From: Firmicutes bacterium ADurb.Bin182
Lineage (GTDB): Bacteria; Bacillota; Clostridia; Christensenellales; CAG-138
Length of the DNA: 64,000 nucleotides
Assembly (NCBI GenBank): GCA_002070205.1
Contig: MWCU01000023.1
Coordinates: forward strand, 6,671-70,670
Reading direction: 5' to 3'
Shown: positions 25,781 to 64,000 of the stretch, one piece after another
How the letters are laid out: the number at the start of each line of letters is the position of its first letter
Position numbering within the stretch: position 1 is the stretch's first letter
Notes under the pieces: generated by a model
The model's database searches: none
What the model was told of the DNA's origin: nothing
What the model saw: only the letters and a program-made list of their open reading frames with translations
Made by a program: the position numbers and the translations under genes

Positions 25781-26890
25781 ATGCCGGAGCGGAGCCATCT
25801 CAACGTTCATTTCAAGCAATGCGGCACCACCTATGCGCAAGCCTTTGACAGCCTGGTGGAAGAAGGAACGATCTCCACGCGCGGCTTGAAGCCGGACGCA
25901 AAGGTAATCGACGAAATGATATTCGATGTGAACACGGCTTATTTTGACCGCCACGGCGGGTACGAATATGCAAGGGAATTTTTTCAACACGCCTATGAAA
26001 TGGCGGTGGAAGAAGCGGGCTCAGAGCAGTACATCCTCTCGGCGGTCATGCACGCGGATGAGCGAAACCGCAGCCTGTCGGATAGCCTCCGGCGCGATGT
26101 GTTCCACTATCACCTCCATGTCGTTTACATTCCCGTTGTGGAAAAGGAAATCAAATGGTCAAAGCGCTGCAAGGATGTGGCGCTTGTAGGCACGGTCAGG
26201 GAGGTTATCCGGCAGGTCAGCCACAGCAAAAAGTGGAAGTCCGAACGCATCACGGACGAACACGGCAATGCTCGACTGATCCCGTCTTACAGCCTTTTGC
26301 AGGACCGCTTCTTCGAGCATATGAAAAATGCCGGATACAGCAATATTGAGCGCGGCGAAAAGCACAGCGCGGAAGTGAATCTCACGGTTGCGGCGTTTAA
26401 GGCGAGGCAAGAACAAGCGAGAGCGCAGGACCTTGAACGCAGCAATAGCCTCGCTGAGAGGGAGCTGAAAAAGCTCAAAACGGAACTTAGCGCGACTATA
26501 AAAACATCGAGCACCATCCGAGAAATTGAAAGCATGGGGAGCAAAACGCTGTTTGGGAAGGTCGAGCTGTCTCCGAAAGAGCATAGCGCCCTCACCGCGC
26601 TTGCAAAGGAGGGCTTGACGTCCCGCGTTAAGATCTCCGGCTTAGAGCGTCAGCTTAATGAGCTCAACCGGCGCTTTTGCCAGCTCAAGGACAGCTATCA
26701 TGAGCTCTATGCCAATACGCGGGAATATTTCCGGGCGGTAAAGCTTGCCCCGCAGGCGGTCAGAGACTTTTTCACGCAGCTGTTCGCCCGCGAGGCACAA
26801 GAGCGCGAAGCAAAAAAACAGGCGCAGCGCGGCAAAACAATCGAACGCAGAAAAAACAGAACAGGAGCATCTCATGAAGAAATATTGTGA
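25781..26890 (+). CDS. MobV-family (Mob_Pre) relaxase; the first canonical start lies downstream of the conserved N-terminal motif (see findings)
   Basis: PERSHLN, HADE...FHYHLHVVYIP (H-x-D-E ... H-x-H metal motif) and a coiled-coil C-terminus. An in-frame upstream extension encodes ...VVRNTAYRKAAVGIRERHNER. Confidence 0.7.
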   Translation: MPERSHLNVHFKQCGTTYAQAFDSLVEEGTISTRGLKPDAKVIDEMIFDVNTAYFDRHGGYEYAREFFQHAYEMAVEEAGSEQYILSAVMHADERNRSLSDSLRRDVFHYHLHVVYIPVVEKEIKWSKRCKDVALVGTVREVIRQVSHSKKWKSERITDEHGNARLIPSYSLLQDRFFEHMKNAGYSNIERGEKHSAEVNLTVAAFKARQEQARAQDLERSNSLAERELKKLKTELSATIKTSSTIREIESMGSKTLFGKVELSPKEHSALTALAKEGLTSRVKISGLERQLNELNRRFCQLKDSYHELYANTREYFRAVKLAPQAVRDFFTQLFAREAQEREAKKQAQRGKTIERRKNRTGASHEEIL

Positions 26891-26950
26891 GCAGAGAAAC
26901 AAAAATGGGCTGCCGAACGGCGAAGCCTGTTCTTGCTGGAGGGCGCGCCA

Positions 26951-28108
26951 ATGGCGAGGATGAAGAAACGCGATGATGGCCTGTATCAGCGCTCTATTAC
27001 AATTGGGCGCAACAGTGACGGTAAGCCGCTGCGCAAAATCATCTATGGGCGAACGCAAAAAGAGCTGGAGGCAAAGGTTGCTGAGTATCAGGAGCAGTTA
27101 AAATACGGCATGCTGCCTGCAAACGAAAATGTCACGTTTGGCGAGATGGCGAAAATCCTCTGCGACGATTATAAACCCATGGTATCCGAGGGCGTTCGCA
27201 AGCGGTATGTCACCACCTGTGAAAAGCATTTGAAGGAGCTGAACAACATACGGCTCCGCGACCTCAAAGCGGCGCATTTGCAGAGCCTCATCAACCGCCT
27301 TGCCCAGGCGGGCTATGCGACAAAATCGCTCAGCGGCATAAAGCAGGTCGCGTCTCAGGTGATGCGCCTTGCGATGGACAACGACATCGTAATGCGCAAC
27401 GTGTTTGAACGGATCAAGATTCCGTCCATCGAAGCGGAAAAGCGAACCCCCTTGACCGAGAAGCAGATCGAGCTGGTAAACGAGCACTGCCTGGATCACC
27501 GCATGGGGCTTCCCGTTATGCTCATGCTGTACGCCGGGCTGCGGCGCGGCGAGCTGATGGCGCTTCGCTGGTCGCACATCGATCTTGAAAACCGCGTCAT
27601 TCATGTACGCGAAGCATGGGCGTTTGAGGCCACAAACGTGGGCCATCGAAAAGCGCCTAAAACCTCGTCAGGCAAGCGCGACATTCCCATACTGGATAAT
27701 CTGTACAGCGTCCTGGTGCGCGTGAAGATGGACGCAAAGAGCTCCCTTGTCTGCCCCACGGCCGAAGGTGTGGAAATGACCAATATCGCGTGGCGGCGGG
27801 CGTGGGAGAGCTATATGCACCATTTGAACATCGCCGCCGGCGGTCGGGTCGGAAGCCGTTCCCGCCCTAAGATAACCGCCATCGAGCCGTTTACTGCCCA
27901 TCAGCTCAGGCACACCTTCATCACCCTTTGCCATGAGGCAGGTATCGATGTGAAGGTCACACAGGACATGGCGGGCCATGCCGATATCCGAACGACCCTT
28001 GGCATCTACACGCACCTCACAAAGGTAAAAAAAGAAGAAGCAGTAGATACATTAAACGCGCATATTGCCGCAAAAAGTAAGACCAAACGGGACGAAATGG
28101 AGCGGTAA
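26951..28108 (+). CDS. int: Tyrosine-type site-specific integrase
   Basis: Complete catalytic set: AGLRRGELMALRWSHIDL (Arg-I), HQLRHTF (His/Arg-II), GHADIRTTLGIYTH (His, Tyr). The start is chosen after GGAGGG; the ORF-track TTG is at 26933. Confidence 0.9.
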   Translation: MARMKKRDDGLYQRSITIGRNSDGKPLRKIIYGRTQKELEAKVAEYQEQLKYGMLPANENVTFGEMAKILCDDYKPMVSEGVRKRYVTTCEKHLKELNNIRLRDLKAAHLQSLINRLAQAGYATKSLSGIKQVASQVMRLAMDNDIVMRNVFERIKIPSIEAEKRTPLTEKQIELVNEHCLDHRMGLPVMLMLYAGLRRGELMALRWSHIDLENRVIHVREAWAFEATNVGHRKAPKTSSGKRDIPILDNLYSVLVRVKMDAKSSLVCPTAEGVEMTNIAWRRAWESYMHHLNIAAGGRVGSRSRPKITAIEPFTAHQLRHTFITLCHEAGIDVKVTQDMAGHADIRTTLGIYTHLTKVKKEEAVDTLNAHIAAKSKTKRDEMER

Positions 28109-28119
28109 GTACTGGTTGG

Positions 28120-28150
28120 AAACAGTAAGAAACAGTAAGGAAACAGTAAA
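28120..28150 (+). repeat. Three tandem copies of AAACAGTAA(G/A) between the integrase stop and tRNA-Asn; possible integrase arm-type sites
   Basis: AAACAGTAAG at 28120-28129, AAACAGTAAG at 28130-28139, AAACAGTAAA at 28141-28150. Partial inverted copies (CTGTTT) occur at 28154-28159 and 28189-28194. Confidence 0.6.
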
Positions 28151-28202
28151 TCGCTGTTTTCAAGGCAAAAAGCACCGTTTCTGACCCCTGTTTCAGGGTA
28201 AG

Positions 28203-28239
28203 AAAAAGTCCCGAAACACCTTGTTTTCGGGACTTTTTT
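28203..28239. terminator. Bidirectional rho-independent terminator
   Basis: AAAAA-GTCCCGAAA(C)-loop-(G)TTTCGGGAC-TTTTTT gives a 9-10 bp GC-containing stem flanked by an A-run and a T-run. It lies just after the tRNA-Asn 3' end (minus strand) and downstream of int (plus strand). Confidence 0.65.
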
Positions 28240-28242
28240 CCT

Positions 28243-28318
28243 TGGCTCCCCCTGCTGGACTCGAACCAGCGACACTGCGGTTAACAGCCGCATGCTCTAC
28301 CGACTGAGCTAAGGAGGA
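28243..28318 (-). tRNA. tRNA-Asn (anticodon GTT), 76 nt with encoded CCA
   Basis: Folded by hand from TCCTCCT-TA-GCTC-AGTCGGTA-GAGC-A-TGCGG-CTGTTAA-CCGCA-GTGTC-GCTGG-TTCGAGT-CCAGC-AGGGGGA-G-CCA. All four stems pair, with one G-U in the acceptor. The anticodon loop is CT-GTT-AA. Confidence 0.9.
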
Positions 28319-51978: not shown

Positions 51979-53346
51979 ATGAAGCTTCAGCCGCCCGTAA
52001 AAAAGAACGACGATATCGTTATCGAGATCACGTCCCTCAACTCGCAGGGGCAGGGAGTCGGGAGGTATGAAGATTATGCGGTATTCGTCCCGGGAGCGAT
52101 CCCGGGCGAAAAGGTGCAAGCGCATATAATCAAGGTCAATCAGGGGTACGGCGTCGGAAAGCTTCAAAATATTTTGACTTCTTCCGCCGAAAGGGTCGAT
52201 CCGTTATGCCCGGCATACGGAAGCTGCGGAGGATGCGTTTTGCAGCATATCCGTTACGAGGCGCAGCTGAAATTCAAACGGCAGGCCGTAACGGACGCCC
52301 TCGAGCGTATCGGCGGCTTCAAAGGCATCGGCGTAAACGATACCATCGGCATGAGCAAGCCCTGGTCCTATCGAAATAAAGGCGCTTTCCCCGTCTCATT
52401 CGTAAACGGAAAAATCGAAGCCGGTTTTTTCGCCCCCCGAAGCCACAGGATAATCCCGATAAGCGACTGCTCAATCCAGGATGAATCGGTAATCCTTTGT
52501 GTCAACGCGGTCAGGGACTGGGCAAACGAGTTCGGCATCCGCGCGTATGACGAGCAAACGCAAAAAGGTACACTCCGCCATGTCGTCGCGAGGACGAGCT
52601 CAAACGGAGAGGTGATGGCCGTCGTAGTTACGATGGGCAGCCTGCCCCGCAAGGACGAACTTATAACGATTCTCCGCGAACGGGTCCCGGGGCTTGCTTC
52701 GATAATCCACAATGTCAATTCAAAACAAACCAGCGTGATACTCGGCGAAAAATACACCGTATTATGGGGCAAGGAAAGGCTCGAGGAGCAGATTTGCTCT
52801 TTAAAATTCATGGTCAGCCCCGCCTCCTTTTTGCAGGTGAATCCCGTTCAAACCGAAAAACTGTACGGAACGGCCCTTGAATATGCGGCTCTTACCGGAA
52901 ACGAAACCGTAATCGATATCTACTGCGGCATAGGCACGATAACGCTGCTGCTCGCTCAAAAAGCAAAGACCGTGATCGGAATAGAATACGTGCCCGAGGC
53001 CGTGAAGGACGCGAAAAACAACGCGAACATAAACGGTATCACAAACGCGAAGTTTATTTGCGCAAAGGCGGAAGAAGAACTTCCGCGGCTGGTGAGCGAA
53101 GGTATCCGTCCGGATGTTGCGGTGCTTGACCCGCCGAGAAAAGGCGCGGAGCCGGAACTTCTTCACGCCATAATCGAATCAAAAACTCCCAAAGTCGTTT
53201 ACGTCTCCTGCAATCCGACAACCCTCGCAAGGGACCTTAAAATACTTGCGGAAGGCGGTTATGAGATCAGGAAGGTCCAACCCGTCGATATGTTCCCGCA
53301 CACGGAGCACGTTGAGTGTTGTTGTCTGCTCGCAAAAATAAAATAG
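51979..53346 (+). CDS. 23S rRNA (uracil-5)-methyltransferase, RumA/RlmD family (TRAM, Fe-S and SAM-MTase domains)
   Basis: TRAM N-terminus, Fe-S cysteines CPAYGSCGGC, SAM motif DIYCGIGT, DPPRKG, and VYVSCNP (catalytic Cys). Confidence 0.85.
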   Translation: MKLQPPVKKNDDIVIEITSLNSQGQGVGRYEDYAVFVPGAIPGEKVQAHIIKVNQGYGVGKLQNILTSSAERVDPLCPAYGSCGGCVLQHIRYEAQLKFKRQAVTDALERIGGFKGIGVNDTIGMSKPWSYRNKGAFPVSFVNGKIEAGFFAPRSHRIIPISDCSIQDESVILCVNAVRDWANEFGIRAYDEQTQKGTLRHVVARTSSNGEVMAVVVTMGSLPRKDELITILRERVPGLASIIHNVNSKQTSVILGEKYTVLWGKERLEEQICSLKFMVSPASFLQVNPVQTEKLYGTALEYAALTGNETVIDIYCGIGTITLLLAQKAKTVIGIEYVPEAVKDAKNNANINGITNAKFICAKAEEELPRLVSEGIRPDVAVLDPPRKGAEPELLHAIIESKTPKVVYVSCNPTTLARDLKILAEGGYEIRKVQPVDMFPHTEHVECCCLLAKIK

Positions 53347-53814
53347 CGAGGGCTGAAATAGGCCTGAAATAAAGGAATTTGGGGGGGATGTACCAAGAAA
53401 TCTAATTATGAAACTTGCATTTCTCTTTCGAATAGAGAGGTTTTCCTTTACAAAAAGCGAGTTATAATTACTCTGACATGGGAACGATTGTGTGGGAATA
53501 TATACAAAGCCTAATTTTGCACTATTACATGTCTCTCAAAACGGTTGTTAAGAGTGTTATTTACCGGGGGAAAAAGCGAAAAGTCTTTTTTATCTCAGCA
53601 AGCTAGAATATTATATTTTGGAGTTCTTTCAAAGGCATGTAAAACCAATTATGATAGTTTTCATTTAAGTATATTTACGGAGCACATTTAAATCACTTAC
53701 TACCTGAAGATTACAAAATTCTTATGTTCATTAAGGGCATCTTCGTAATATTCTATCCATCCTTTATCGTTCAAATATAAGCGGTAAAAATGCTTGAGGA
53801 TCCTGTTTTTTAGC

Positions 53815-54960
53815 TTAAAAGTTCCGCCTTTTCATTATTTTTGCGTAAACATCGCATACTGCTGACACAATGGTATCTACTTCGTTTATTGTGTTGTGTC
53901 TTCCATATGAAATACGAATGGCTGACTTTGCTTGTTGCTCAGTTAATCCTAAAGCAAGAAGTACGTGCGATGGCTCGTCTTTACCAGAATTGCAAGCTGA
54001 ACTCGTAGACACACAAACCCCTTTCAAGTCAAGCAAGTGCATAAGTGATTCGCCCGAAACGCCACCAAAGCCAAGATTTATAATACCAGGTAGACTGCAT
54101 TCAGCATCACCATTAACTCTTACAAGGGGTATTTTTTCTTTTATAATATCTACAGTAGCCTCTATCATTATTCTTAATCGCTTTGCTGTCTCAGCCATTT
54201 CAGCGACGCTTTCTTCAAGGGCGTAACCCGCCGCAACGATTGCAGCAACATTCTCCGTTCCGGCACGGAGTCCGCATTCTTGTTCGCCGCCGAACAATAA
54301 TGGCAATAATTTTATTCCTGCTCGCTTGTATAGAATTCCTGTACCTTTCGCTCCATTGAACTTGTGGGCAGAAGCAGTTAAGAAATCGACTTGCAAGTCA
54401 TTAACGTTGACAGGAATATGCCCAACAGCTTGCACGGCATCGGTATGGAACAGAACCCCTTCGCTTTTCAATAATCGCCCGATCTCAGTTATTGGCTGGA
54501 TCGTGCCAATTTCGTTGTTGGCGAGCATAATCGACGCCAGTTTGGTATGCGGCTTGATTGCCTTTTTTACATCATCTACCGAAACCAGCCCCACATTATC
54601 GACAGGGAGGAAAGTAACCTCTATACCGCTCTGTTCAAGAGCGCGGCAAGCATTCAAGACAGAATGGTGTTCGATAGCAGTAGTTATAATGTGTATCGGC
54701 TCGTTGCGGTAGGCTTCGGCCACACTCCGCAACACCCAACTATTTGCTTCAGAACCACCAGAGGTGAATGTGATTTCAGACGGTTCCGCACCGATAGCTG
54801 CTGCAACTTTTTTGCGGGCCTGCTCCACGGCACGTTTGGCTTTTACTCCATGTGAATACTGACTAGAGGCGTTACCATATTGTTCGCGCAGAAACGGAAG
54901 CATCTGCTCGAATGCGCGGTCGGAAATTCGCGTTGTTGCAGCATTATCTGCGTAGATCAC
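53815..54960 (-). CDS. Cysteine desulfurase (class V aminotransferase, NifS/IscS/DndA type); last gene of the BREX-like operon
   Basis: IYADNAATT, TSGGSEANS, SAHKFNGAKGTG (PLP lysine), VSTSSACNSG (catalytic Cys loop). Its start lies 18 nt after the brxL-like stop on the same strand. No IscU/NifU-type scaffold gene follows, only about 470 bp of non-coding DNA. Confidence 0.85.
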   Translation of the reverse strand: MIYADNAATTRISDRAFEQMLPFLREQYGNASSQYSHGVKAKRAVEQARKKVAAAIGAEPSEITFTSGGSEANSWVLRSVAEAYRNEPIHIITTAIEHHSVLNACRALEQSGIEVTFLPVDNVGLVSVDDVKKAIKPHTKLASIMLANNEIGTIQPITEIGRLLKSEGVLFHTDAVQAVGHIPVNVNDLQVDFLTASAHKFNGAKGTGILYKRAGIKLLPLLFGGEQECGLRAGTENVAAIVAAGYALEESVAEMAETAKRLRIMIEATVDIIKEKIPLVRVNGDAECSLPGIINLGFGGVSGESLMHLLDLKGVCVSTSSACNSGKDEPSHVLLALGLTEQQAKSAIRISYGRHNTINEVDTIVSAVCDVYAKIMKRRNF

Positions 54961-54978
54961 GGCAACTGTCTTCCTTTC

Positions 54979-56412
54979 TTAATCTCTGTATTGAATGTCC
55001 GGTACGTCAGGGTTGACGTATTCCTTTGGCGCAACAACGTGCAACTGATTTCTTATCACTTGGCGCATTGCCTTAGCAGGTTCAAGGCAATACTTCACGA
55101 ATTCTTCCCGTGGAATATCAGCACTGGTTTTTGCGTGAGGGAATAAGAGTTTAACAAACCCTGTGCAGAGACGAGAGATTGCATCAAGGTCACGCTTGTA
55201 TGCTTTCGGAGGGACAGAGAGACATGAATCCACCAAAGTTGAATAATGCAGTTCATCGCGCAGTGAATGTAGGACTTCTGCAAAATACTCAGTATTTAAA
55301 GCCCATCCATTAGCAACCAAGTTTTGATGGAATTTTGGTATTTTCCATCCCGGTATAAAGCCATGTATCCGATCAAGTGTTTCTGCTTTACGGAAAATTG
55401 GGTTTATCGCATCGACCATGTTGACCTGCGTGTTAAATTTCTCCGCTTCTATATTCCCCAAAACAACAATCCCTGAACTGGCAGGAATTTCAGAATCAAA
55501 CCCCTTAACGATACCGTCTTGCATATAGGTGGTAAGAGCAGCCTGTATCTGTGCAGGTTCAAGGAATTTCATGTTCTGTATTTCATCAAAAGCAACGTAA
55601 TCGAAGCGTGTAACAAGCCCTGGGGTTTTTAAATTATTATCATAGAATAGAGTAGCTCTTGATACCGTGCCACCCGAAACAACCCAGCCGCGTTTGCTAA
55701 TTTTTTCGTACACATAACTTTTACCTGTACCACGCGGAGCAAGCTCAATCAAGTTTACGCGCCGTTCAACGAAAGGTAACAATCGACGGATAAAATACAT
55801 TTTTTGTTCCTCGGTGTCATATCCGTCAGGATTATAGTCTACGGAAGAAATAAGCAAATCGAGCCATTCCTCAGTAGTGAAATTGTTACGAGCTTCTCGG
55901 TAAAATTCCAAGTCCACACTATATGGGCAGAACGGCTGGTAACCAATCAGCTTGACATAGCCGAGCGGAGGCTTTTTAGAGAAGTCCTGCTCCCATACCA
56001 GGTCAATGATTCCCCAGTTCTCACTTTCACGGAGTAATGTGTCCTGCCATCTGTTGACCACGTCGTTAGCAACTTCACCACCAGCACCAGATTTCGTGCC
56101 GCCGAAGTCTGGTAGCTCAAACAGAGTCTTTCCCGTTCTGACATCGACACCAACTCGAATTCTGGCAAGAAAACGGATGCTCTCCCCATTGACCATCTGG
56201 AACTTAAATTGCTCGTAATCCTCACGGTTTGGGATATATTTCTTAATATAGCGAGCTACACCGTTGTAGTCAATTTTCCCGTTTTCATCAGAAAATTTCA
56301 TTACAAGCCAGTCTCTCATGTAAGATGGCAGACTGAGGTCGGCAAAAAACTTTGTACGTTCCGGATTCTTAAGTACCACCATCTCTGCGAAGACTTCTTT
56401 AATCTTGTCCAT
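54979..56412 (-). CDS. brxL: BrxL-like AAA+ ATPase (short form, no recognisable Lon protease domain)
   Basis: Walker A ELAPRGTGKSYVY and Walker B YVAFDEIQ. Overall resemblance to the family of about 470 aa (TIGR02688-type) that co-occurs with PglZ. Positioned immediately downstream of pglZ. Confidence 0.7.
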   Translation of the reverse strand: MDKIKEVFAEMVVLKNPERTKFFADLSLPSYMRDWLVMKFSDENGKIDYNGVARYIKKYIPNREDYEQFKFQMVNGESIRFLARIRVGVDVRTGKTLFELPDFGGTKSGAGGEVANDVVNRWQDTLLRESENWGIIDLVWEQDFSKKPPLGYVKLIGYQPFCPYSVDLEFYREARNNFTTEEWLDLLISSVDYNPDGYDTEEQKMYFIRRLLPFVERRVNLIELAPRGTGKSYVYEKISKRGWVVSGGTVSRATLFYDNNLKTPGLVTRFDYVAFDEIQNMKFLEPAQIQAALTTYMQDGIVKGFDSEIPASSGIVVLGNIEAEKFNTQVNMVDAINPIFRKAETLDRIHGFIPGWKIPKFHQNLVANGWALNTEYFAEVLHSLRDELHYSTLVDSCLSVPPKAYKRDLDAISRLCTGFVKLLFPHAKTSADIPREEFVKYCLEPAKAMRQVIRNQLHVVAPKEYVNPDVPDIQYRD

Positions 56413-56423
56413 TGGCTATCCTC

Positions 56424-56624
56424 CTAAAGAAACAAAGTGCAGCCTTGTTCCTTGAACTCTTCAATCTTAACCTCTAAATCACTGCGATGGCATTCAAGAT
56501 ATTCAGCAAGACAGTCAATACAGTAAAACTCGGTTATATCTCTTCCGAGCATTTTCTGTGTTAGTGCTACCTCATCCTTGCTCAAAATCTTCTTGCACTC
56601 TGTGCATGTCTTTTTTTCTCTCAT
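56424..56624 (-). CDS. 66-aa four-cysteine zinc-ribbon protein
   Basis: CTEC (aa 7-10) and CIDC (aa 35-38). The start codon overlaps the pglZ stop (TAATG). The stop is 11 nt before brxL, whose RBS is AGGAGG. Confidence 0.6.
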   Translation of the reverse strand: MREKKTCTECKKILSKDEVALTQKMLGRDITEFYCIDCLAEYLECHRSDLEVKIEEFKEQGCTLFL

Positions 56625-58735
56625 TATGGCAACCCCAGAATATCATCATTAATCGTTATTCCCTTTGGCTTTTTTATTGTTTCCTTGGGAGGAAGTGGAG
56701 TTTTTCGGGTTACGACTAGAACAGGTACAAGGTATTCTTCAGGTGTCATGCCGCCATGAACTTCACCTGCAACAGCCTTTTCGTCGGTATTGCCGCCCGC
56801 CGCATTGCCTGACAGTTTAAAATGCTCATAGGTTTTCATAACGATATAGTGTTTCCCATCAATTTCTGTATGCTCCATTGACGCGGTCAGTGCAACATAA
56901 CTCTCTTCCTTTAACTCGACAAACCTTCCAAAGGAGTGTACGATGGCGTCCTTGGGTGGCTCAACAGCAAAATTTTCTGCATCGTGAAAGAGTAAGGCTG
57001 CAAGCCTGCTGCTACCGTGATCTCCAGTTACAATAACCCTGTTTACTTTAGACAGCATTTCTGACACATGTTCAACAATCTCATTCATAATTTCCAACTG
57101 ACGAGCAATACACAGGAAGTAATCCTTATCATCCGGCATACCATTATGAGAGAGTTTGTCGAGCCTATCCCATTTTATATCCGCAGCCGTCCACTTATGG
57201 TTGTATTCAGTTTCCGTCGGCAAAAGTGCTTTTGCAATTAACGGCTTTACGGTCACTGCAATACCTAGAGAATTTAGCCGCCTCAATAAAATAGGAATCC
57301 ATTCTGCACCTAAGCCGTCAACCCAAAACTGAAGAGTATCGTCAGTGCTATTTTGTTGAATAGCTTTATTTCTGCTGTCGATAGAATCAAAATCAATAAT
57401 ACAGGGTATATCTGTGTTCGGCTTATTTAACAATTTACTCCGGCGATACCAATTAAAATACTGTGTTATTGCTCCTGTATCAGTTGAATCAGGATTTAAA
57501 TACTCGGCTAAATCAGGGTAATCCGATTTGAGTAGTTCGACGAGAGCATTGATTTCAGCACCACTACGCAAGAGACCGCTTACTACTCTCACAGCATATG
57601 CACGTTCCGCAAGCGTCCTATATGTCAGCATCATCAACCGGGATTCAGGGGCAGGGATTTTGTCGAGTCTTACAAAATACCCATCACTATAAGATAGGTC
57701 AAGAACCCTCAATACAGCAGTCCTTTGCTGAATGAAAGAGTCCGTCAATTTAGGCAATTCGAAAATTGAGTCTCTAAGCGAGATAGGTATCTCATCCGCT
57801 GATGCTACTTTATTGATAGCATAAGTGTAATAATCATCTGATGGGTAGAGTTTATACCATAAACGCAATAAATTTAATTCTATATCCGAGAGTTCGTTAA
57901 AGCGCGCCAAAACACTGATGGGGTTAAAACTGTGTCCGATGTTAAGCAGAAACTTAATGGTTTCTGCAAAGGGTTGACCTTGTTTGGTGTTCTGAGCAAT
58001 GTGCTTCCAAAATTCTTCGTTTCCGTCATCCTTCCTAAGCTTCTCACCATCGGCAACAAGAGAAGCAACATAAGCAAATGGTTCATCAATGATACTCAAC
58101 CGGACCCCGCCATATGTTGGTTCTGCATACCGATATAGTTTCGTTTGGAATGAAAAGCTGTTTCGGTTCTTGTCGCTGAACAATGTTGTCCACTTCAAAA
58201 ACCATTCTTGCAAATTCGTAGCATCTACGGTTATTGCATCCGTAAAATCCGGTGAATAAATAACAAGGCTGTATTCCGACTCAGCCGATGACTCGTTTAC
58301 CTCCCAAACGAATTGCTGCTGACGCTCATCTTGGATAGGCATAATCGAATCAAATATTTCTCTGCTGCCAAATATAGGAATTATATACTTCGTTGTAGAT
58401 TTTTCCGACTGTTGTTGCTCCCATAGGCTGGGGAAATTAGCGGTTGTCTTATCGCGTTCCCGCTTTATACAGATACGGAGATATTCCCCAAGCGAGAGGA
58501 GAAGCAGTTGCTTTTCCGAATGCTTGCTTAACTCGTTTTTGAAATCCTTGAAACGTGGTAGGACATCTCCTTTAGTGAAAGCCGAGAGGTCAATGACCTC
58601 ATCGCACACAGTCTTAAGTTCACCGACCAAGGAGAGATAGTCGGCGAAGTTGTGAGCAAATATTAGCCGCGTCGGGAATCTACCGGGCGTTTGTCGCTCG
58701 TTGGACACCTTTGTAACAATTTCAGCAATGTTCAT
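56624..58735 (-). CDS. pglZ: PglZ-domain alkaline-phosphatase-superfamily protein
   Basis: FWVDGLGAEWIPIL (start of the PglZ domain) and RVIVTGDHGSSRL (metal-binding DHG). 703 aa. Flanked by BrxC-like and BrxL-like genes. Confidence 0.85.
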   Translation of the reverse strand: MNIAEIVTKVSNERQTPGRFPTRLIFAHNFADYLSLVGELKTVCDEVIDLSAFTKGDVLPRFKDFKNELSKHSEKQLLLLSLGEYLRICIKRERDKTTANFPSLWEQQQSEKSTTKYIIPIFGSREIFDSIMPIQDERQQQFVWEVNESSAESEYSLVIYSPDFTDAITVDATNLQEWFLKWTTLFSDKNRNSFSFQTKLYRYAEPTYGGVRLSIIDEPFAYVASLVADGEKLRKDDGNEEFWKHIAQNTKQGQPFAETIKFLLNIGHSFNPISVLARFNELSDIELNLLRLWYKLYPSDDYYTYAINKVASADEIPISLRDSIFELPKLTDSFIQQRTAVLRVLDLSYSDGYFVRLDKIPAPESRLMMLTYRTLAERAYAVRVVSGLLRSGAEINALVELLKSDYPDLAEYLNPDSTDTGAITQYFNWYRRSKLLNKPNTDIPCIIDFDSIDSRNKAIQQNSTDDTLQFWVDGLGAEWIPILLRRLNSLGIAVTVKPLIAKALLPTETEYNHKWTAADIKWDRLDKLSHNGMPDDKDYFLCIARQLEIMNEIVEHVSEMLSKVNRVIVTGDHGSSRLAALLFHDAENFAVEPPKDAIVHSFGRFVELKEESYVALTASMEHTEIDGKHYIVMKTYEHFKLSGNAAGGNTDEKAVAGEVHGGMTPEEYLVPVLVVTRKTPLPPKETIKKPKGITINDDILGLP

Positions 58736-58746
58736 CGTAGCGCCCC

Positions 58747-61700
58747 CTAATTCAGGAAATAGCTGTACAATTCGGGATTCTCATCAAGAAGTTTAAGTAC
58801 GATATCTCTTAGATCTTTCTCTGACATTTTTGACCCTATACGCTTCTTTGCTTCATCAATATATGTCTTCTGTAGGTAGGAATCAAGAACAGCACGTATC
58901 TCGGGAATTTTGCTTTCCCATGTATAAACGTCTGAAGTCAACTTCGAATTAGTCTTGAGCCTGTCAATAAGAATTTTCCTGTCCGTGTTGAATGCTGGAC
59001 GGTAATTTTCCCCGATGTGAGCGAAGAATCTGTCGGCAATATACACCGAGTCCTTGAGTACAGCAAGCCCACCGCCATTTAAGAAAGTGATGGCTTTTGC
59101 GAGAGCATCTTTTTCTACTACTTGTCCATCTTGTAGTGCCTTAATTGTCCTTATAGCCATAATGCTCGCTCCGTCAAATAACCACGCTATTGGTATGTTA
59201 GCGTTGTTGCACCATTCCCGTACACTTTCCATACCAGTGGCATCATAAAATAGTTTTTTAGCTTTTGCTGAGTCACGGGTGTACTGAACATTGTCCAGCA
59301 AACCATTCAACTTGGTATCAAAGACACTTATCGGCGTTTCATATGGCTGCTGTTTTAGAGCAGTATATACCTCTTCCAACTCATTCTCAGTAACTGTAAT
59401 ACGGCGGGCATTGAAGACCGCTTCAAGGAGCAGCTTAGGTTGGGAGAGATTTTCCCATGTGGTTTTTGCGCTTCCTTCTAAAGTTCCTGCAACACTTTCC
59501 TTGTTAGCAAGCTCAGCCCATGATACTTTTGAAATCTCACGCAGAAGTTTTAGTGCCGGTATCCAGCTAAAAGGCAAAGTTTCTAAAACTGTGCCAGGAA
59601 TCTTCATGTGTTCAAAAACATTATTCAAAGCGTTCTGTGCGGCGCGATAGGTCTTTAGATTTGCACCAATTTCAGCTTTGATGGTGGCAATCACCTTTAA
59701 CTCCTGTGCCAATTCTACAAGTTTATCCGATACCTGTTCTTCACGCCATGCCGATATGGAATCCTGTAGATAAACCCGTAATGCGTCAAAAATATCCTTA
59801 TCCGTAAGATCAAGACTATGGCTCAGGGTTTCCATCTCAACGGCCTTAGAAAACATGAATTGCTTGAAAGCTGAGAGCATGGCCGTTTTATCAGCAAGGG
59901 AAGTGGTTATAGATTGGCGAAGGTGTCCCCGACCATTAAACTGTGTAAGTACTTCCGCCATGACCGTTTCTTGGTCTTCAGTCGTTTCGTAGATAAAGCT
60001 GCAAAGCAAATCGGTTATCTTAACAACTACTGTTTTAAACTCATCACCGCCGAACTTCTCGGCAGGCATATATTTCAAAGCCCAAATAGGAATACCATTT
60101 CTTGTAATCGTCTGCTTTATGAATTTTCGTGCTTCGGTATCGCTCACTGCTTCCTGTGCCGAAAGCCCGAATAGTTTTTGTATGTACTGTTTGAACTTTT
60201 GCCAAATGGCAGAGCCAGATGATAGGTTATGGTTGATAGTTTTACCATCGAGCATATTACTGACCATGCTCGCAAGATTGCCCGCTGTTGGGGGCAGGGT
60301 GTTTACGCCATCGAACCAGTTAAACGATCCGTTGACGAGTGATCGCATTGCAAGCCCAAGAAAGCAACCGACCGTCATCGAGTTGTAATATCCGAAAGGG
60401 GGCTGTTGCAGCTTCGCCCAAAGTACATCAAGTGGAATTTTTGCGCCTCGGGCAAATTCCTGCTGAAAATATGAGGCTAGAGCAGAAATGATATCTGCGT
60501 TTCCACCGCTAAGATTTATCAGGCCGTCCAAGTCATCAATTTCCCACGCTCCAATAACCTTTAATGCATTTACGATGTTGTTAACTTGCGCGTTGGTCAC
60601 CTCTTTAGTAAGGCCAGCCAGGACAACTTTATCAGTACACTTTTTATATGCCGTGTTAACCGTCACAAGGCGTTCGGGAGCAGCTGGGAAAACGTTATAA
60701 AGTACATCTTTTTCTATCCGCTTCATCAGGTCGCTCTTCCCATAAATCCCTGTGAATTGGATATCGCCGTAGCAAGCATAAATCTGGGAGTCTAATGCGG
60801 GACCTGCCCATGTGGCAACAATCATATTCGCTTCTGTTTCATATTTGCCCGCATCACCAGACTTACCTTCTTCAGCGCAGAGTTCTTTGTGCGTAATGGC
60901 TTTGTGCCAACGGTCAAGCAAATCTGCCGTACATGGTTCACGGAGCATTGCGATGACTAGACGCTTGCTATCGTCTTCAGATGCAAGTTGCCTTATCTTG
61001 GCTTGGAAACTGGTATACTCTCTCGCTTCGGAAATAGTCACAACAAGTATACCAATTTTATATGGGTGCTTTTGGACTTCCTTCTTGACCTCACCAAGAC
61101 GTGTAGAAAAAGAATTGGTCTCCGACGAACAAGCCGCGATGTACACACGTCCTGCTGTAGCTCTCGTAGAATCCCACATCCCATTCTCAAGTGCCTTTGA
61201 GAAAATCCCCTTTTCAGCGAAGAGGGCATATCGCGTATACTTTTTCTTCGTCATCTCAAGCCTAATATCGAATGTATCTATGTTCCCTGTATATGGCAGC
61301 TCCAAGCGAGCATCGCCGTTAGGCTGCTCTCCAATACTAAGCAAGCCGATTTCCTTAAAGGAAGTAAGATATTCATCAATAGTTGTCTGTTCAATTTGAC
61401 CACGAAAGCATTTATAGAGTGTATTTCTTGTTGCACCGATTTTACCATTTGAATGGCTTTGTTTGCTATACAAATTACTTATGTTACTACCGCTCATTAC
61501 GGCAATGAGAAGCAATGCGGCTTTAAAGACATGCAATGCATACTCGTCGGAAATCGAATTAGCTTTATTTTGAAAGTATTGTATAGCTTTTAATGCTTCT
61601 GGAGTAAAAGTCTTTACATCTTTATCGCGTGTGTCGGATTCTACAGTAAAGAAATAATCCCAAAGGTAGTCAACAGTCAACCACTGCCATTTGTCTGGTT

Positions 61701-62982
61701 CATTATTTTCTATATAGTGAATAAAGCCAATACCTTTTGAGGATTTTGCTCCATCTTTCATAAAGCGGAACAGTGTTCTCTGGGAAGCACCAAAGTGTTC
61801 TGCTACAGTTGCAAGCATCGCAAGCGTCATAGGGTGAATCGGACAAAGCTTCGTAAGACGCTCATTTATATTAATGCTCTGGTCAAGATTGTCGAACTCG
61901 GTCTTATACTTTGCAATGGATTTCATCAAGTCCTTTTTCACTTCATCCCATTGGGTTGCCATACCCGGACGCGGCATAATGGAATCGCCTATCAAATCAT
62001 ATGCAGCGCTCTCAGTGATATGGAACTTCAATTCGTGGTAGCGGTGTAGAATTCTCTCATAGGTTTCATCACCAAGTTCAGATACCCAAGTCGGGTCACG
62101 GTGAACAATCAGACACATGAAGAAAGGTGCATTGGGCTTTGCTTTTCCGTCTTTGTCCACAGATTTGCAGAATTCAGAAAGTCGTTGTAGTACATTATCA
62201 TCACCGCAATCCCGCAAAAATCCGGTAAATTCATCCCATATAAAGACGATGCCAGTATCAGAGAGGTTATTACCGGAAATGATGTCCTTTATCCATTCTT
62301 CAAATCTATCTACAACACTCGTGAACATGGTGCGCTTATTATCGTCACAGATTCGCTTGACTAGATGGATGGCATCCGAGTCTCCGTCCAAAACTGCTTG
62401 TCGGAACTCAGCGAAATCGGAATATTGGTCGGAAAGACCGTACTGAATATCCGTGAATAGATATGTCCAGTTGATGCTCTGATCGTTAATTGCGTCCTTC
62501 GCAGCGTTTATAAGCGAACTTGTCCCATAGTAAGCCTTGTCGCCGAACTTTTCTTTCAGTTTTTCCTTTATCTTTACCTCCATCTCCATCATGAGATGAG
62601 TGCCACTTTTGATGTCAGTTGCTCCGCTTTTCCAAACAACTAGAAAGTCACCTTTTTCGCGGATCTTGATAAACCGCTTCTTGTATTCAGCAAGAGAGGG
62701 GCGACTTAAAAAGGAATCGATATTAGAAATACTGTCCTCGAAAAGATGCTTGAGTACGATGGCAGCGTAACTCTTGCCCGTGCCATACGCCCCATGAATC
62801 CAGAAAGAACGGCGCTTGTCGTTATCCTCCCATAGCATTGTTTGACATACTGCGTCAATAGCATTTTTCATATCATCGTGGACAATGTACTCTTTCCACA
62901 GATTAGGATTGCGCTCTTCTGCATCCAAGTCTACAACAGATTCGTAGTTTGCAGACAATTCAATATAGTTGCTGTACCTCAT
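58747..62982 (-). CDS. brxC: BrxC/PglY-like large P-loop ATPase (1411 aa)
   Basis: Walker A HGAYGTGKSYAA (aa about 64-75) and Walker B IVFIWDEFTGF. Very large alpha-helical remainder. Sits upstream of pglZ, as in BREX operons. Confidence 0.7.
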   Translation of the reverse strand: MRYSNYIELSANYESVVDLDAEERNPNLWKEYIVHDDMKNAIDAVCQTMLWEDNDKRRSFWIHGAYGTGKSYAAIVLKHLFEDSISNIDSFLSRPSLAEYKKRFIKIREKGDFLVVWKSGATDIKSGTHLMMEMEVKIKEKLKEKFGDKAYYGTSSLINAAKDAINDQSINWTYLFTDIQYGLSDQYSDFAEFRQAVLDGDSDAIHLVKRICDDNKRTMFTSVVDRFEEWIKDIISGNNLSDTGIVFIWDEFTGFLRDCGDDNVLQRLSEFCKSVDKDGKAKPNAPFFMCLIVHRDPTWVSELGDETYERILHRYHELKFHITESAAYDLIGDSIMPRPGMATQWDEVKKDLMKSIAKYKTEFDNLDQSININERLTKLCPIHPMTLAMLATVAEHFGASQRTLFRFMKDGAKSSKGIGFIHYIENNEPDKWQWLTVDYLWDYFFTVESDTRDKDVKTFTPEALKAIQYFQNKANSISDEYALHVFKAALLLIAVMSGSNISNLYSKQSHSNGKIGATRNTLYKCFRGQIEQTTIDEYLTSFKEIGLLSIGEQPNGDARLELPYTGNIDTFDIRLEMTKKKYTRYALFAEKGIFSKALENGMWDSTRATAGRVYIAACSSETNSFSTRLGEVKKEVQKHPYKIGILVVTISEAREYTSFQAKIRQLASEDDSKRLVIAMLREPCTADLLDRWHKAITHKELCAEEGKSGDAGKYETEANMIVATWAGPALDSQIYACYGDIQFTGIYGKSDLMKRIEKDVLYNVFPAAPERLVTVNTAYKKCTDKVVLAGLTKEVTNAQVNNIVNALKVIGAWEIDDLDGLINLSGGNADIISALASYFQQEFARGAKIPLDVLWAKLQQPPFGYYNSMTVGCFLGLAMRSLVNGSFNWFDGVNTLPPTAGNLASMVSNMLDGKTINHNLSSGSAIWQKFKQYIQKLFGLSAQEAVSDTEARKFIKQTITRNGIPIWALKYMPAEKFGGDEFKTVVVKITDLLCSFIYETTEDQETVMAEVLTQFNGRGHLRQSITTSLADKTAMLSAFKQFMFSKAVEMETLSHSLDLTDKDIFDALRVYLQDSISAWREEQVSDKLVELAQELKVIATIKAEIGANLKTYRAAQNALNNVFEHMKIPGTVLETLPFSWIPALKLLREISKVSWAELANKESVAGTLEGSAKTTWENLSQPKLLLEAVFNARRITVTENELEEVYTALKQQPYETPISVFDTKLNGLLDNVQYTRDSAKAKKLFYDATGMESVREWCNNANIPIAWLFDGASIMAIRTIKALQDGQVVEKDALAKAITFLNGGGLAVLKDSVYIADRFFAHIGENYRPAFNTDRKILIDRLKTNSKLTSDVYTWESKIPEIRAVLDSYLQKTYIDEAKKRIGSKMSEKDLRDIVLKLLDENPELYSYFLN

Positions 62983-62995
62983 AACTCAATCTCCT

Positions 62996-64000
62996 TCACT
63001 CTGCGAAAATATCAAGGACATCGATCGCTTTCTTTTCATGCACAAGCATAACATTATCGAGGTCTTGGACAAACGCCACACGGATGAATTCGGGATACTG
63101 AAGTGCGATATCCTGCACGATAGCTTTGAAATTATTTGGGTTCAAACCGAAGATAGCTACAGGATCTACACCTTTAGCTTCAGCATGACCGCGGGCGTTA
63201 TTAAGTTGCGTCAAGGTAAATGTGTATCGCCCTGTTTCCTCAGCAAACTTATAGAGTGCGTAGAGAATTGCTGCAGCTTCCGGCGTATCCCAACCTTGCT
63301 TCATGAATTTAAAACTGGTGCCATCAGGAATCGGGATGCCCTGCTTGAGAGCGGTTCCAACTGGCGAGTGACGGAAAGTTTCAAGCAAGGCAGTCACAGC
63401 ATTATCACGCGTGGATGGCGAGTAGTCGTCGCCAAGCATGAATACAAGTTCGGCCTTATCATAGGTCTCGCCAGTTTGTGCATACAGCATATACCACTTT
63501 GAGATGATTGAGTTATAAGCGAGATTTGTCCAAATCACAGCCCACACCATCGGGTTACCTGCTCCAAGGTGAATGAGCCTATTGCATAGCTCGGTCATTG
63601 TTCCTGATTTTTCTCCCTTGTTCGAAGGTGTAAGCAGTTCAGCCTCACGTAACCAAACACGCAATGCATCGTATTGCCTGTTGCCAAGCTGTCCTTGTGT
63701 AAAGCAATCCGTGCCATGTTCAAAGAAGTGCTCCAACCACGGACGACGAAAGCCAAATGTTTGATACCTATTCATACCTTTTAATTGCATATTATTTCCC
63801 TCCGTTGTGGATAGAGATTTCGCGACAAGGCAACCTTTACCCTCTGTAAAGCCAATGCAGTTACCGCAATGAGTGCAAAGTTCCTCGCGAACGAGGATTT
63901 TTCTATCCTCCATTATTTCAAATGCCCCTGTCGGACATTGAACGACACATGCCTTGCAGCCAACACAATATGCCACCTTATACGCAACACCGCGCAATCT
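62996..64000 (-). CDS. C-terminal part (at least 335 aa) of a protein that runs off the window: a 2x[4Fe-4S] ferredoxin-type motif followed by an unassigned domain of about 270 aa. It occupies the BrxP position of a type-4 BREX operon
   Basis: The reading frame is open to the window edge, and the track's M at 63997 is a TTG. Motifs CVGCKACVVQCPTGAF and CTHCGNC are present. The stop is 13 nt before brxC, whose RBS is AAGGAGA. No PAPS-reductase motif is visible in the portion present. Confidence 0.5.
   Translation of the reverse strand, partial: RLRGVAYKVAYCVGCKACVVQCPTGAFEIMEDRKILVREELCTHCGNCIGFTEGKGCLVAKSLSTTEGNNMQLKGMNRYQTFGFRRPWLEHFFEHGTDCFTQGQLGNRQYDALRVWLREAELLTPSNKGEKSGTMTELCNRLIHLGAGNPMVWAVIWTNLAYNSIISKWYMLYAQTGETYDKAELVFMLGDDYSPSTRDNAVTALLETFRHSPVGTALKQGIPIPDGTSFKFMKQGWDTPEAAAILYALYKFAEETGRYTFTLTQLNNARGHAEAKGVDPVAIFGLNPNNFKAIVQDIALQYPEFIRVAFVQDLDNVMLVHEKKAIDVLDIFAE

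What the first reader, a model, noticed from the sequence alone, without database searches (positions are those of the whole stretch)
53815..64000. Type-4-like BREX operon ending in a DndA/NifS-type cysteine desulfurase: candidate sulfur-dependent DNA-marking defence
Seen in the sequence:
- Six co-directional minus-strand genes are packed with gaps of 0-18 nt inside an AT-rich island (40% GC spot count against about 57% in core genes).
- The order is: partial Fe-S protein, 1411-aa P-loop ATPase, PglZ, 66-aa zinc ribbon, BrxL-like AAA+ ATPase, cysteine desulfurase.
- No PglX-type methyltransferase is present in the visible part.

Established knowledge:
- In the BREX classification (Goldfarb et al. 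2015), type 4 is BrxP-BrxC-PglZ-BrxL. A PAPS-reductase-domain protein (BrxP) takes the place of the methyltransferase.
- In Dnd phosphorothioation, the PAPS-reductase-fold Fe-S protein DndC obtains sulfur from the cysteine desulfurase DndA.

Inference:
- A desulfurase hard-wired to the 3' end of a BrxP-type BREX operon, with no IscU/NifU scaffold gene beside it, suggests a sulfur-containing self mark (phosphorothioate or thiolated base) instead of N6-methyladenine.
- That would make this a BREX/Dnd hybrid logic. I am not aware of it having been characterised.
Basis: partly seen in the sequence, partly recalled or inferred. Interest (0 to 1): 0.85.

Follow-up and report, generated by a model that had tools for sequence, protein, structure and literature searches.

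The report
BREX type 4 operon with desulfurase

Summary
Six co-directional minus-strand genes (gaps -1 to 18 nt) sit in a 43% GC island next to 51.5% GC core genes: BrxP (cut by the window end), BrxC, PglZ type 4, a 66-aa zinc-finger protein, short BrxL and a class-I cysteine desulfurase. An identical contig extends the locus. It shows a full 775-aa BrxP with a PAPS-reductase domain and an SGGKDS PP-loop, and no methyltransferase.

All seven sampled close relatives of the desulfurase (76-82% identity, from Dehalococcoides to Methanoregula) are the last gene of a BREX-4 operon. In my survey, 46 of 64 assessable BREX-4 loci carry such a gene.

It is not novel. Yuan et al. (PMC12914056) showed experimentally that BREX-4 BrxP and BrxC make phosphorothioate DNA. 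[quoted passage not shown]

Small additions from this work:
- The desulfurase slot is an exchangeable cassette. The nearest operon relatives share 85% DNA identity up to 28 nt into the gene, then carry a desulfurase only 48% identical.
- A 660-aa HARE-HTH protein precedes BrxP in all 35 loci of this architecture.
- The zinc-finger protein has five invariant cysteines and is fused to a BrxP-like PAPS reductase in one relative.

The parts
62996..64000 (-). brxP, 3' part: the C-terminal 333 aa of a 775-aa protein. The visible part holds the ferredoxin-type CxxCxxCxxxC Fe-S region and the DUF4007/SspB-like C-terminal region. The PAPS-reductase/PP-loop N-terminus lies beyond the window end.
   Evidence: PADLOC BrxP 1e-86 (profile 455-775 of 779) and Fer4 families. 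The full protein from the identical contig L001 scores PADLOC BrxP 5.5e-234 and PF01507 4.9e-30, and has SGGKDS at residues 136-141. DUF4007 is only weak (E 0.0057 and 0.079).
58747..62982 (-). brxC, a 1411-aa P-loop ATPase (BrxC/PglY, SspC-like). Walker A is GAYGTGKS at residues 64-71.
   Evidence: PADLOC BrxC 1.5e-66 and SspC 8e-21. Precomputed PF19557 BrxC-PglY_N. Motif.
56624..58735 (-). pglZ (brxZ), the type-4 variant, 703 aa, an alkaline-phosphatase-fold protein.
   Evidence: NF033445 BREX-4 PglZ, 270.9 bits against a cutoff of 140. PADLOC PglZ 2.5e-34. Invariant DHG, E..H and D/T/N columns across 11 homologs.
56424..56624 (-). A 66-aa zinc-finger protein. Its start overlaps the pglZ stop by 1 nt. 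It has CxxC (7, 10), CxxC (35, 38) and an invariant C62 in the C-terminal motif KIxEFKEQGCxLF.
   Evidence: Translation. It is present in almost all surveyed BREX-4 loci. C7, C10, C35, C38 and C62 are 100% conserved in 73 sequences. The family has 456 representatives, mostly stand-alone proteins of about 65 aa. There is no Pfam, NCBIfam, PADLOC or PDB match.
54979..56412 (-). brxL, short form (477 aa): BrxL_N plus a AAA+ ATPase domain and no Lon protease domain. Walker A is APRGTGKS at residues 225-232.
   Evidence: TIGR02688, 405.7 bits against a cutoff of 329.3. PF13337 5e-104 and PF20442 6e-24. Motif.
53815..54960 (-). Class-I (IscS/NifS-type) cysteine desulfurase, 381 aa, with a GTG start 18 nt after the brxL stop and an AAGAAAGGAAG ribosome-binding site. 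The PLP lysine is K200 (SAHK) and the catalytic cysteine is C323 (TSSACNSG).
   Evidence: PF00266 3.8e-83. PADLOC DndA 6e-138 and SspA 8e-136. NF002806 IscS-subfamily, 327 bits against a cutoff of 304. Sequence. Nearest solved structures are NFS1, IscS and T. maritima NifS-like; SspA 6M4J scores 1.9e-62 and DndA 3VAX scores 8e-62.
54932..54976 (.). Recombination boundary of the desulfurase cassette.
   Evidence: DNA homology to the nearest operon relatives L008 and L013 (84.9% over 9075 bp) stops at 54932, which is 28 nt inside the desulfurase ORF. Homology to L010, which has no desulfurase, stops at 54976. Homology to L012 and L011 runs on to 53839 and 53837.
53347..53814 (.). AT-rich (33.8% GC) spacer that forms the island's left border, between the desulfurase stop and the convergent core gene for an RNA methyltransferase (51979-53346, plus strand).
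   Evidence: No convincing terminator or promoter was found.

Best explanation
The locus is an intact type 4 BREX system on a horizontally acquired island in a Bacillota metagenome-assembled genome. An identical protein is recorded as 'Firmicutes bacterium ADurb.Bin182'.

It has two parts.

Modification module, which works like SspABCD (inferred by homology, not shown for this locus):
- The operon's own PLP-dependent cysteine desulfurase takes sulfur from L-cysteine as a persulfide on C323.
- It passes the sulfur to BrxP. BrxP is a fusion of a PAPS-reductase/PP-loop ATP pyrophosphatase, a ferredoxin-like Fe-S region and a DUF4007 (SspB-like) DNA-binding region.
- By analogy with DndA and DndC, the desulfurase probably also supplies sulfide for BrxP's Fe-S cluster.

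Exclusion side (mechanism unknown): PglZ and the short AAA+ BrxL, probably together with the conserved zinc-finger protein and the upstream 660-aa HARE-HTH multi-winged-helix protein, act against unmarked incoming DNA.

The desulfurase is an accessory, interchangeable part. It is present in most but not all BREX-4 operons, and it has been swapped between operon lineages.
For: - Domain identities with curated cutoffs met for PglZ-4 and BrxL, and a full-length PADLOC BrxP match.
- All catalytic motifs are intact: SGGKDS, CxxCxxCxxxC, two Walker A motifs, SAHK and the catalytic cysteine loop.
- The genes are packed like an operon.
- Seven of seven sampled desulfurase homologs at 76-82% identity, from Chloroflexota, Nitrospirota, Euryarchaeota and Bacillota, are the terminal gene of a BREX-4 operon.
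- 46 of 64 assessable BREX-4 loci have a co-directional desulfurase within 84 nt. The figure is 38 of 41 in the window's gene order and 8 of 19 in the other order.
- Published experiments on homologs: B. salyersiae BREX-4 DNA carries phosphorothioate dinucleotides. Deleting brxC abolishes them. brxP plus brxC are sufficient in B. thetaiotaomicron, with a host SufS as the presumed sulfur source. brxZ and brxL are not needed for the modification (PMC12914056).
- Cassette exchange: (DNA breakpoints). Against the other gene order, the window's desulfurase is 78-82% identical, while BrxC, PglZ, BrxP and BrxL are only 25-41% identical.
Against: - Nothing here shows phosphorothioate in this organism's DNA or any phage defence by this locus.
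- The experimentally studied system made phosphorothioate with a host desulfurase, so no one has shown that the operon-encoded enzyme is needed.
- By sequence the desulfurase is nearer to generic IscS/NifS/NFS1 than to SspA or DndA. It fails the equivalog cutoffs for NifS, IscS and DndA.
- The DUF4007 match in BrxP is below threshold here.
- The rest of the genome could not be searched for a second desulfurase.
Confidence: 0.8

Rival explanations
1. The desulfurase serves only to build BrxP's Fe-S cluster, as DndA can do for DndC, and is not the donor of the sulfur that ends up in DNA. That sulfur would come from a housekeeping IscS or SufS.
For: BrxP has a conserved ferredoxin-type CxxCxxCxxxC region. 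BREX-4 phosphorothioate synthesis works with a host SufS only (PMC12914056). 28% of BREX-4 loci lack the gene. You et al. 2007, cited in PMC12914056, showed that DndA assembles DndC's cluster.
Against: In the Dnd and Ssp systems the same enzyme is held to do both jobs. If it were only a cluster-building helper, there would be little reason for the gene to be kept at one fixed operon position across phyla and replaced by another desulfurase when lost.
Confidence: 0.1
2. The desulfurase is the organism's housekeeping NifS/IscS and lies next to the island by chance.
For: Its best curated family match is the generic IscS subfamily. The NifS equivalog score is high (450 bits) though below the cutoff. 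The nearest solved structures are housekeeping enzymes.
Against: The gap to brxL is 18 nt on the same strand, with no NifU/IscU gene beside it. Its GC3 of 0.41 matches the island, not the core genes at about 0.62. All seven sampled nearest relatives are BREX-4 terminal genes in unrelated phyla. The DNA homology to related operons includes or excludes exactly this gene.
Confidence: 0.04
3. The sulfur mark is not a backbone phosphorothioate but a thiolated base or another sulfur adduct.
For: PP-loop/PAPS-reductase-fold enzymes also make thiolated nucleosides in tRNA. No chemistry was measured for this locus or for this gene order in Bacillota.
Against: BrxP and BrxC are homologous to SspD/SspB and SspC. 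LC-MS/MS and PT-seq found phosphorothioates in several BREX-4 carriers, including members of the same broad family (PMC12914056).
Confidence: 0.04
4. The locus is a decaying, non-functional remnant.
For: A close relative (L007/L012) appears to have a frameshifted pglZ. This is a MAG, so expression is unknown.
Against: All six window ORFs and the two upstream genes are full length with intact catalytic motifs. The locus aligns with relatives over 9-10 kb.
Confidence: 0.03

Closest known systems
BREX type 4 (brxP-brxC-pglZ-brxL; Goldfarb et al. 2015), as characterised in Bacteroides salyersiae and surveyed in PMC12914056 and PMC12839542
   Same: All four defining genes are present and in the same order, with no PglX. 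BrxP is a fusion of PAPS reductase, an Fe-S region and DUF4007. The desulfurase and the small zinc-finger protein are the accessory pair that PMC12839542 reports in 56% of type-4 taxa.
   Different: The experimentally studied B. salyersiae operon carries an mcrA-like gene, and its phosphorothioate pathway was rebuilt with a host SufS. Here the sulfur donor is encoded in the operon, there is no mcrA, and a 660-aa HARE-HTH protein precedes brxP. I did not find that protein tied to type 4 in the text or the held supplements of PMC12839542.
SspABCD phosphorothioation module (Xiong et al. 2020)
   Same: The parts match one to one: desulfurase with SspA (PADLOC 8e-136), BrxC with SspC (8e-21), BrxP N-terminus with SspD (1.8e-6), and BrxP C-terminus with SspB/DUF4007 (weak here, supported by HHpred in PMC12914056).
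   Different: SspD and SspB are fused into one protein with an extra ferredoxin-like region. The partners are PglZ and BrxL, not SspE or SspFGH. By sequence the desulfurase is closer to IscS/NifS than to the solved SspA.
DndABCDE phosphorothioation (DndA desulfurase plus DndC)
   Same: A class-I desulfurase feeds a PAPS-reductase-fold Fe-S protein. PADLOC DndA scores 6e-138 and DndC 1.8e-7.
   Different: There are no DndB, DndD or DndE homologs. The DndA equivalog model TIGR03235 scores 355.7 against a cutoff of 480, so it is not met. PMC12839542 reports that BrxP lacks a cysteine pair unique to DndC.
BREX type 1 (BrxA, BrxB, BrxC, PglX, PglZ, BrxL)
   Same: It shares the BrxC, PglZ and BrxL core.
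   Different: There is no PglX methyltransferase. BrxL is the short 477-aa form without the Lon protease domain. The self mark is sulfur rather than m6A.

Membership tests
BREX type 4 | BrxP: a protein with a PAPS-reductase domain in place of the PglX methyltransferase | tested here: met
   The window holds only the C-terminal 333 aa (PADLOC BrxP 1e-86). The identical contig L001 gives the full 775 aa, with PF01507 4.9e-30, PADLOC BrxP 5.5e-234 and SGGKDS. No methyltransferase is present in the locus.
BREX type 4 | BrxC/PglY P-loop ATPase | tested here: met
   PADLOC BrxC 1.5e-66 and Walker A GAYGTGKS. The NCBIfam BrxC model built on type 1 is not met (25.6 bits against 400), as expected for the divergent type-4, SspC-like form.
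BREX type 4 | PglZ of the type-4 subfamily | tested here: met
   NF033445 scores 270.9 bits against a cutoff of 140.
BREX type 4 | BrxL | tested here: met
   TIGR02688 scores 405.7 bits against a cutoff of 329.3. PF13337 and PF20442 also match.
BREX type 4 | Phosphorothioate modification of host DNA, and phage exclusion | not testable with these tools
   The modification has been shown only for homologs (PMC12914056). Anti-phage activity of such variants 'awaits investigation' according to that paper.
BREX type 4 accessory pair (PMC12839542) | [quoted passage not shown] | tested here: met
   Genes at 53815-54960 and 56424-56624. The same pairing was seen in 46 of 64 surveyed loci, and the zinc-finger protein in nearly all of them.
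DndA (TIGR03235 equivalog) | Score above the curated equivalog cutoff | tested here: not met
   355.7 bits against a cutoff of 480. The solved DndA 3VAX ranks below IscS, NFS1 and NifS-like structures.
NifS (TIGR03402) and IscS (TIGR02006, NF010611) equivalogs | Score above the curated equivalog cutoff | tested here: not met
   450.7 against 530.75, 353.6 against 643.2, and 361.1 against 548.
Class-I (IscS-subfamily) cysteine desulfurase | Subfamily model cutoff met, PLP lysine in SxHK, and a catalytic cysteine loop | tested here: met
   NF002806 scores 327.2 against 304. SAHK at 197-200 and SSAC at 320-323.
SspABCD | A separate SspB (DUF4007) and SspD, with an SspE or SspFGH partner | tested here: not met
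   The SspD-like and DUF4007-like regions are fused in BrxP. DUF4007 is only weak here (E 0.0057 and 0.079). No SspE, F, G or H hits were found. The partners are PglZ and BrxL.

The most novel reading that the evidence does not exclude
The invariant 66-aa zinc-finger protein is not a transcription regulator. Instead it is a dedicated subunit of the sulfur-insertion machinery, working with BrxP. It might act as a persulfide or Fe-S relay through its fifth invariant cysteine (C62, in the KIxEFKEQGCxLF tail), or as a DNA-targeting adaptor.

Around this fixed BrxP-plus-zinc-finger core, the desulfurase slot would be a freely exchangeable sulfur-supply cassette. The 660-aa HARE-HTH multi-winged-helix protein would be the so far undescribed DNA reader of this gene-order subtype.

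The evidence is compatible with this but does not prove it:
- The zinc-finger protein is present in nearly all BREX-4 loci, including those without a desulfurase.
- Five cysteines are 100% conserved.
- In one family representative the domain is fused to the C-terminus of a BrxP-like PAPS reductase, where it replaces the ferredoxin and DUF4007 part.
- The HARE-like gene lies upstream of brxP in 35 of 35 loci of this gene order.

Against it:
- The domain is also fused to a NusG/KOW protein.
- PMC12839542 likens it to HTH regulators.
- The predicted three-helix content would also fit a DNA-binding regulator, although that model has low confidence.
Probability: 0.2. Interest if true: 0.45.

Novelty: already known. 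Interest (0 to 1): 0.22.

Why it matters
That matches what was later published: phosphorothioate synthesis by BrxP and BrxC (2024 preprint, Nat Commun 2026), and the desulfurase as a sixth core component (NAR 2026). This locus therefore adds an environmental Bacillota example and not a new principle.

What is still open, and testable with loci like this one:
- whether the operon-encoded desulfurase is really needed;
- what the invariant zinc-finger protein and the HARE-HTH protein do;
- how PglZ and BrxL exclude DNA that lacks phosphorothioate.

The evidence that the desulfurase is swapped between operon lineages fits the published idea that any class-I desulfurase can serve. It argues against tight co-evolution with BrxP.

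Tried and rejected
- AlphaFold2 on the 66-aa zinc-finger protein without an alignment gave a poor model (pLDDT 52). I used it only for rough helix content.
- A PDB sequence search with the zinc-finger protein found nothing meaningful (E 0.67). Pfam, NCBIfam and PADLOC gave no hit.
- AlphaFold2 on the 660-aa HARE-HTH protein with 30 homologs gave pLDDT 79. Foldseek against the PDB gave no match at E <= 0.001, only weak winged-helix hits (VPS25, Fur/Zur, LOTUS, Dcc1) and no nuclease or other enzyme fold. The idea that it is a phosphorothioate-dependent nuclease therefore has no support.
- The gene upstream of brxP in the other gene order (L081, 510 aa) is unrelated to the HARE protein (hhalign probability 0.6%) and has no Pfam hit.
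- The C-terminal 450 aa of BrxC has no recognisable domain.
- The promoter and terminator scan gave nothing convincing around the desulfurase. It neither supports nor excludes an internal promoter.
- The source genome is not among the GTDB species representatives at 100% identity (best PglZ match 84%). I therefore could not search the rest of the genome for a second desulfurase.
- No tRNA or integrase marks the visible island border. No direct repeats flank the separate mobile element at tRNA-Asn.

Full report
**1. Observation**

- 53815-54960 (381 aa)
- 54979-56412 (477 aa)
- 56424-56624 (66 aa)
- 56624-58735 (703 aa)
- 58747-62982 (1411 aa)
- 62996 to the window end (at least 333 aa)

The spacers are 18, 11, -1, 11 and 13 nt. 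Profile searches identify them firmly:
- The first is a class-V aminotransferase-fold cysteine desulfurase (PF00266 3.8e-83; PADLOC DndA 6e-138 and SspA 8e-136).
- The second is the short form of BrxL (TIGR02688, 405.7 bits, cutoff 329.3).
- The 703-aa protein is the type-4 PglZ (NF033445, 270.9 bits, cutoff 140).
- The 1411-aa protein is BrxC (PADLOC 1.5e-66, with secondary SspC hits).
- The truncated ORF is the C-terminal 43% of BrxP (PADLOC 1e-86 over profile positions 455-775 of 779), with a ferredoxin-type cluster motif.
- The 66-aa ORF has no family match. It reads MREKKTCTECKK...FYCIDCLAEY...EFKEQGCTLFL, a CxxC/CxxC zinc-finger pattern.

It is 43.2% GC (GC3 about 0.42) against 51.5% (GC3 about 0.62) for the adjacent core genes.

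**2. Extending the locus**

An exact-protein look-up for BrxC returned an 11.3-kb contig, L001. It matches the window with 0 mismatches over the shared 7577 nt and continues past the window end.
- BrxP is 775 aa. It has PF01507 PAPS_reduct (4.9e-30), the PP-loop SGGKDS at 136-141, CVGCKACVVQC at 453-463, and a full-length PADLOC BrxP match (5.5e-234), with weaker DndC and SspD hits.
- Upstream, 5 nt from brxP, lies a 660-aa protein with a HARE-HTH domain. Before that lies a 70-aa HTH_17 protein.
- No methyltransferase is present.
- An identical copy of the 660-aa protein is recorded as a hypothetical protein of 'Firmicutes bacterium ADurb.Bin182'. That is presumably the source organism.

The flanking genes are a standard Bacillota core block: murB, rapZ, whiA, dnaE, pfkA and a TRAM-domain RNA methyltransferase. 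The island begins right after the convergent methyltransferase gene.

**3. Is the desulfurase part of the system?**

Three lines of evidence say yes.

(a) The nearest relatives.
- The 120 best database relatives are all 76-82% identical and come from very different organisms, including Dehalococcoides mccartyi, Nitrospirota, Deltaproteobacteria, Smithellaceae, Syntrophomonadaceae, Desulfitobacterium and the archaeon Methanoregula.
- I looked up seven of them. In every case the desulfurase is the last gene of a BrxP-BrxC-PglZ-BrxL operon.

(b) An independent survey anchored on PglZ, not on the desulfurase.
- A scan of one genome per GTDB species found 365 stretches that encode a relative of the window's PglZ, and 80 loci were kept.
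- Of 64 loci with enough downstream sequence, 46 (72%) have a co-directional desulfurase gene starting 8-84 nt after the last operon gene.
- The figure is 38 of 41 for the window's gene order (PglZ, zinc finger, BrxL) and 8 of 19 for the alternative order (PglZ, BrxL, zinc finger).

(c) Local features.
- The gap is 18 nt with a good ribosome-binding site, and the gene's GC3 matches the island.
- No NifU/IscU scaffold gene or second desulfurase occurs anywhere in the 64-kb window.
- The PLP lysine (SAHK, K200) and the catalytic cysteine loop (TSSACNSG, C323) are intact.

The housekeeping-gene rival is therefore unlikely. I could not search the rest of the genome.

**4. What is already published**

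Yuan, DeMott ... Dedon (bioRxiv June 2024; Nat Commun Jan 2026; PMC12914056) report the following:
- BrxP is in effect an SspD-SspB fusion, and BrxC is an SspC homolog.
- Bacteroides salyersiae carrying a BREX-4 operon has phosphorothioate dinucleotides by LC-MS/MS.
- Deleting brxC abolishes them.
- brxP plus brxC suffice in B. thetaiotaomicron, given a host SufS.
- brxZ and brxL are dispensable for the modification.

A comparative study in NAR (Jan 2026; PMC12839542) states the following:
- A cysteine desulfurase 'not previously associated with BREX' occurs in 255 of 457 (56%) type-4 taxa.
[quoted passage not shown] - It closely resembles DndA.
- Its patchy presence probably reflects substitution by IscS, NifS or SufS.

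My 72% figure and the near-universal zinc-finger gene agree with that account.

**5. Mechanism**

Shown by homologs and inferred here:
- The desulfurase forms a persulfide from cysteine.
- BrxP, with BrxC, installs phosphorothioate at host motifs.
- The desulfurase may also feed BrxP's Fe-S cluster, as DndA does for DndC.

Still unknown: how PglZ and the short BrxL exclude DNA. PMC12914056 itself says that anti-phage activity of these variants awaits investigation.

On formal membership:
- All four defining genes of BREX type 4 are met.
- The desulfurase belongs to the IscS subfamily (NF002806 met). It fails the equivalog cutoffs for DndA, NifS and IscS.
- By sequence it is closer to NFS1, IscS and T. 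maritima NifS-like than to the solved SspA or DndA.
- 'DndA/NifS-type' is therefore right as a description of how it works, not as a clade assignment.

(i) The desulfurase is an exchangeable cassette.
- The window's closest operon relatives (L008, L013) share 84.9% DNA identity over 9075 bp. Their proteins are 84-95% identical to the window's BrxP (90%), BrxC (89%), PglZ (84%) and BrxL (95%).
- That homology stops 28 nt inside the desulfurase ORF, at window position 54932.
- From there they carry a desulfurase only 48% identical.
- In L010 the homology stops right after brxL and there is no desulfurase.
- In L012 and L011 the homology continues to the desulfurase stop codon.
- Conversely, the window's desulfurase is 78-82% identical to those of the other gene order, whose BrxC, PglZ, BrxP and BrxL are only 25, 27, 33 and 41% identical.
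- Those other operons are 77-96% identical to one another in every gene across Dehalococcoides, Nitrospirota and Methanoregula, so the operon has spread recently across phyla and domains.

(ii) The zinc-finger protein.
- It is found in nearly every BREX-4 locus, including those without a desulfurase.
- C7, C10, C35, C38 and C62 are invariant in 73 sequences, and the C-terminal motif KIxEFKEQGCxLF is conserved.
- The family has 456 representatives at 50% clustering, mostly stand-alone proteins of about 65 aa.
- Fusions exist. One is to a BrxP-like PAPS reductase with SGGKDS, where it takes the place of the ferredoxin and DUF4007 part. One is to a NusG/KOW protein. One is to the N-terminal part of a PglZ, which may be a read-through artefact.

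(iii) The 660-aa HARE-HTH protein.
- A homolog, conserved mainly in its C-terminal half, lies upstream of brxP on the same strand in 35 of 35 assessable loci of the window's gene order. It is found in 0 of 14 loci of the other order.
- Its AlphaFold model (pLDDT 79) is a chain of helical and winged-helix modules with no detectable enzyme fold.
- It is not mentioned in connection with type 4 in the text or the held supplements of PMC12839542.

None of these changes the classification.

**7. Verdict**

The novelty rating is 'already known': this is an uncharacterised instance of a described system. Interest is low. What remains of value lies in the untested roles of the operon-encoded desulfurase, the zinc-finger protein and the HARE-HTH protein.

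Noticed in passing
window 22363-28318: A likely integrative mobilisable element next to tRNA-Asn (28243-28318, minus strand). It holds a DUF6076 protein, an actin-like ParM/Alp protein, a Mob_Pre relaxase and a tyrosine integrase. Its GC of 0.54-0.56 is higher than both flanks. No flanking direct repeat of 16 nt or more was found.
   Followed up: partly
window 492-22000: A second AT-rich block (GC 0.35-0.50) of co-directional minus-strand genes for a surface polysaccharide: sulfatase-like, Wzy_C polymerase/ligase, three GT4 glycosyltransferases, hexapeptide and GNAT acyltransferases, Bac_transf initiating transferase, ATP-grasp amino-acid ligase, DegT and class-I aminotransferases, an epimerase and UDP-glucose dehydrogenase. 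It looks ordinary.
   Followed up: partly
L001 403-2385 (just beyond window position 64000): A 660-aa HARE-HTH multi-winged-helix protein lies 5 nt upstream of brxP. A homolog sits upstream of brxP in 35 of 35 BREX-4 loci with the window's gene order and in 0 of 14 with the other order. No enzyme fold was detected. It may be an undescribed DNA-reading component of this subtype.
   Followed up: partly
L001 168-380: A 70-aa HTH_17 (excisionase/MerR-like) protein starts the gene row upstream of the HARE gene. It has a PADLOC 'mad1' hit at 3e-8. Similar genes were seen in only two surveyed loci, L010 and L021.
   Followed up: no
P0351 (414 aa, from the representative library): The BREX-4 zinc-finger domain is fused to the C-terminus of a BrxP-like PAPS reductase that has SGGKDS. 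Another representative, P0342, fuses it to a NusG/KOW protein.
   Followed up: partly
L007/L012 about 6221-8330 (Syntrophomonadaceae MAG): In this close relative, pglZ matches the window's PglZ in three pieces in different frames. This points to a frameshifted gene or an assembly error.
   Followed up: no
L002, L003, L005 (Dehalococcoides mccartyi, Nitrospirota MAG, Methanoregula MAG): BREX-4 operons of the other gene order are 77-96% identical in every protein across two bacterial phyla and an archaeon. This indicates recent transfer of the whole operon between phyla and domains. In L002 and L089, serine recombinase genes lie next to the operon.
   Followed up: partly
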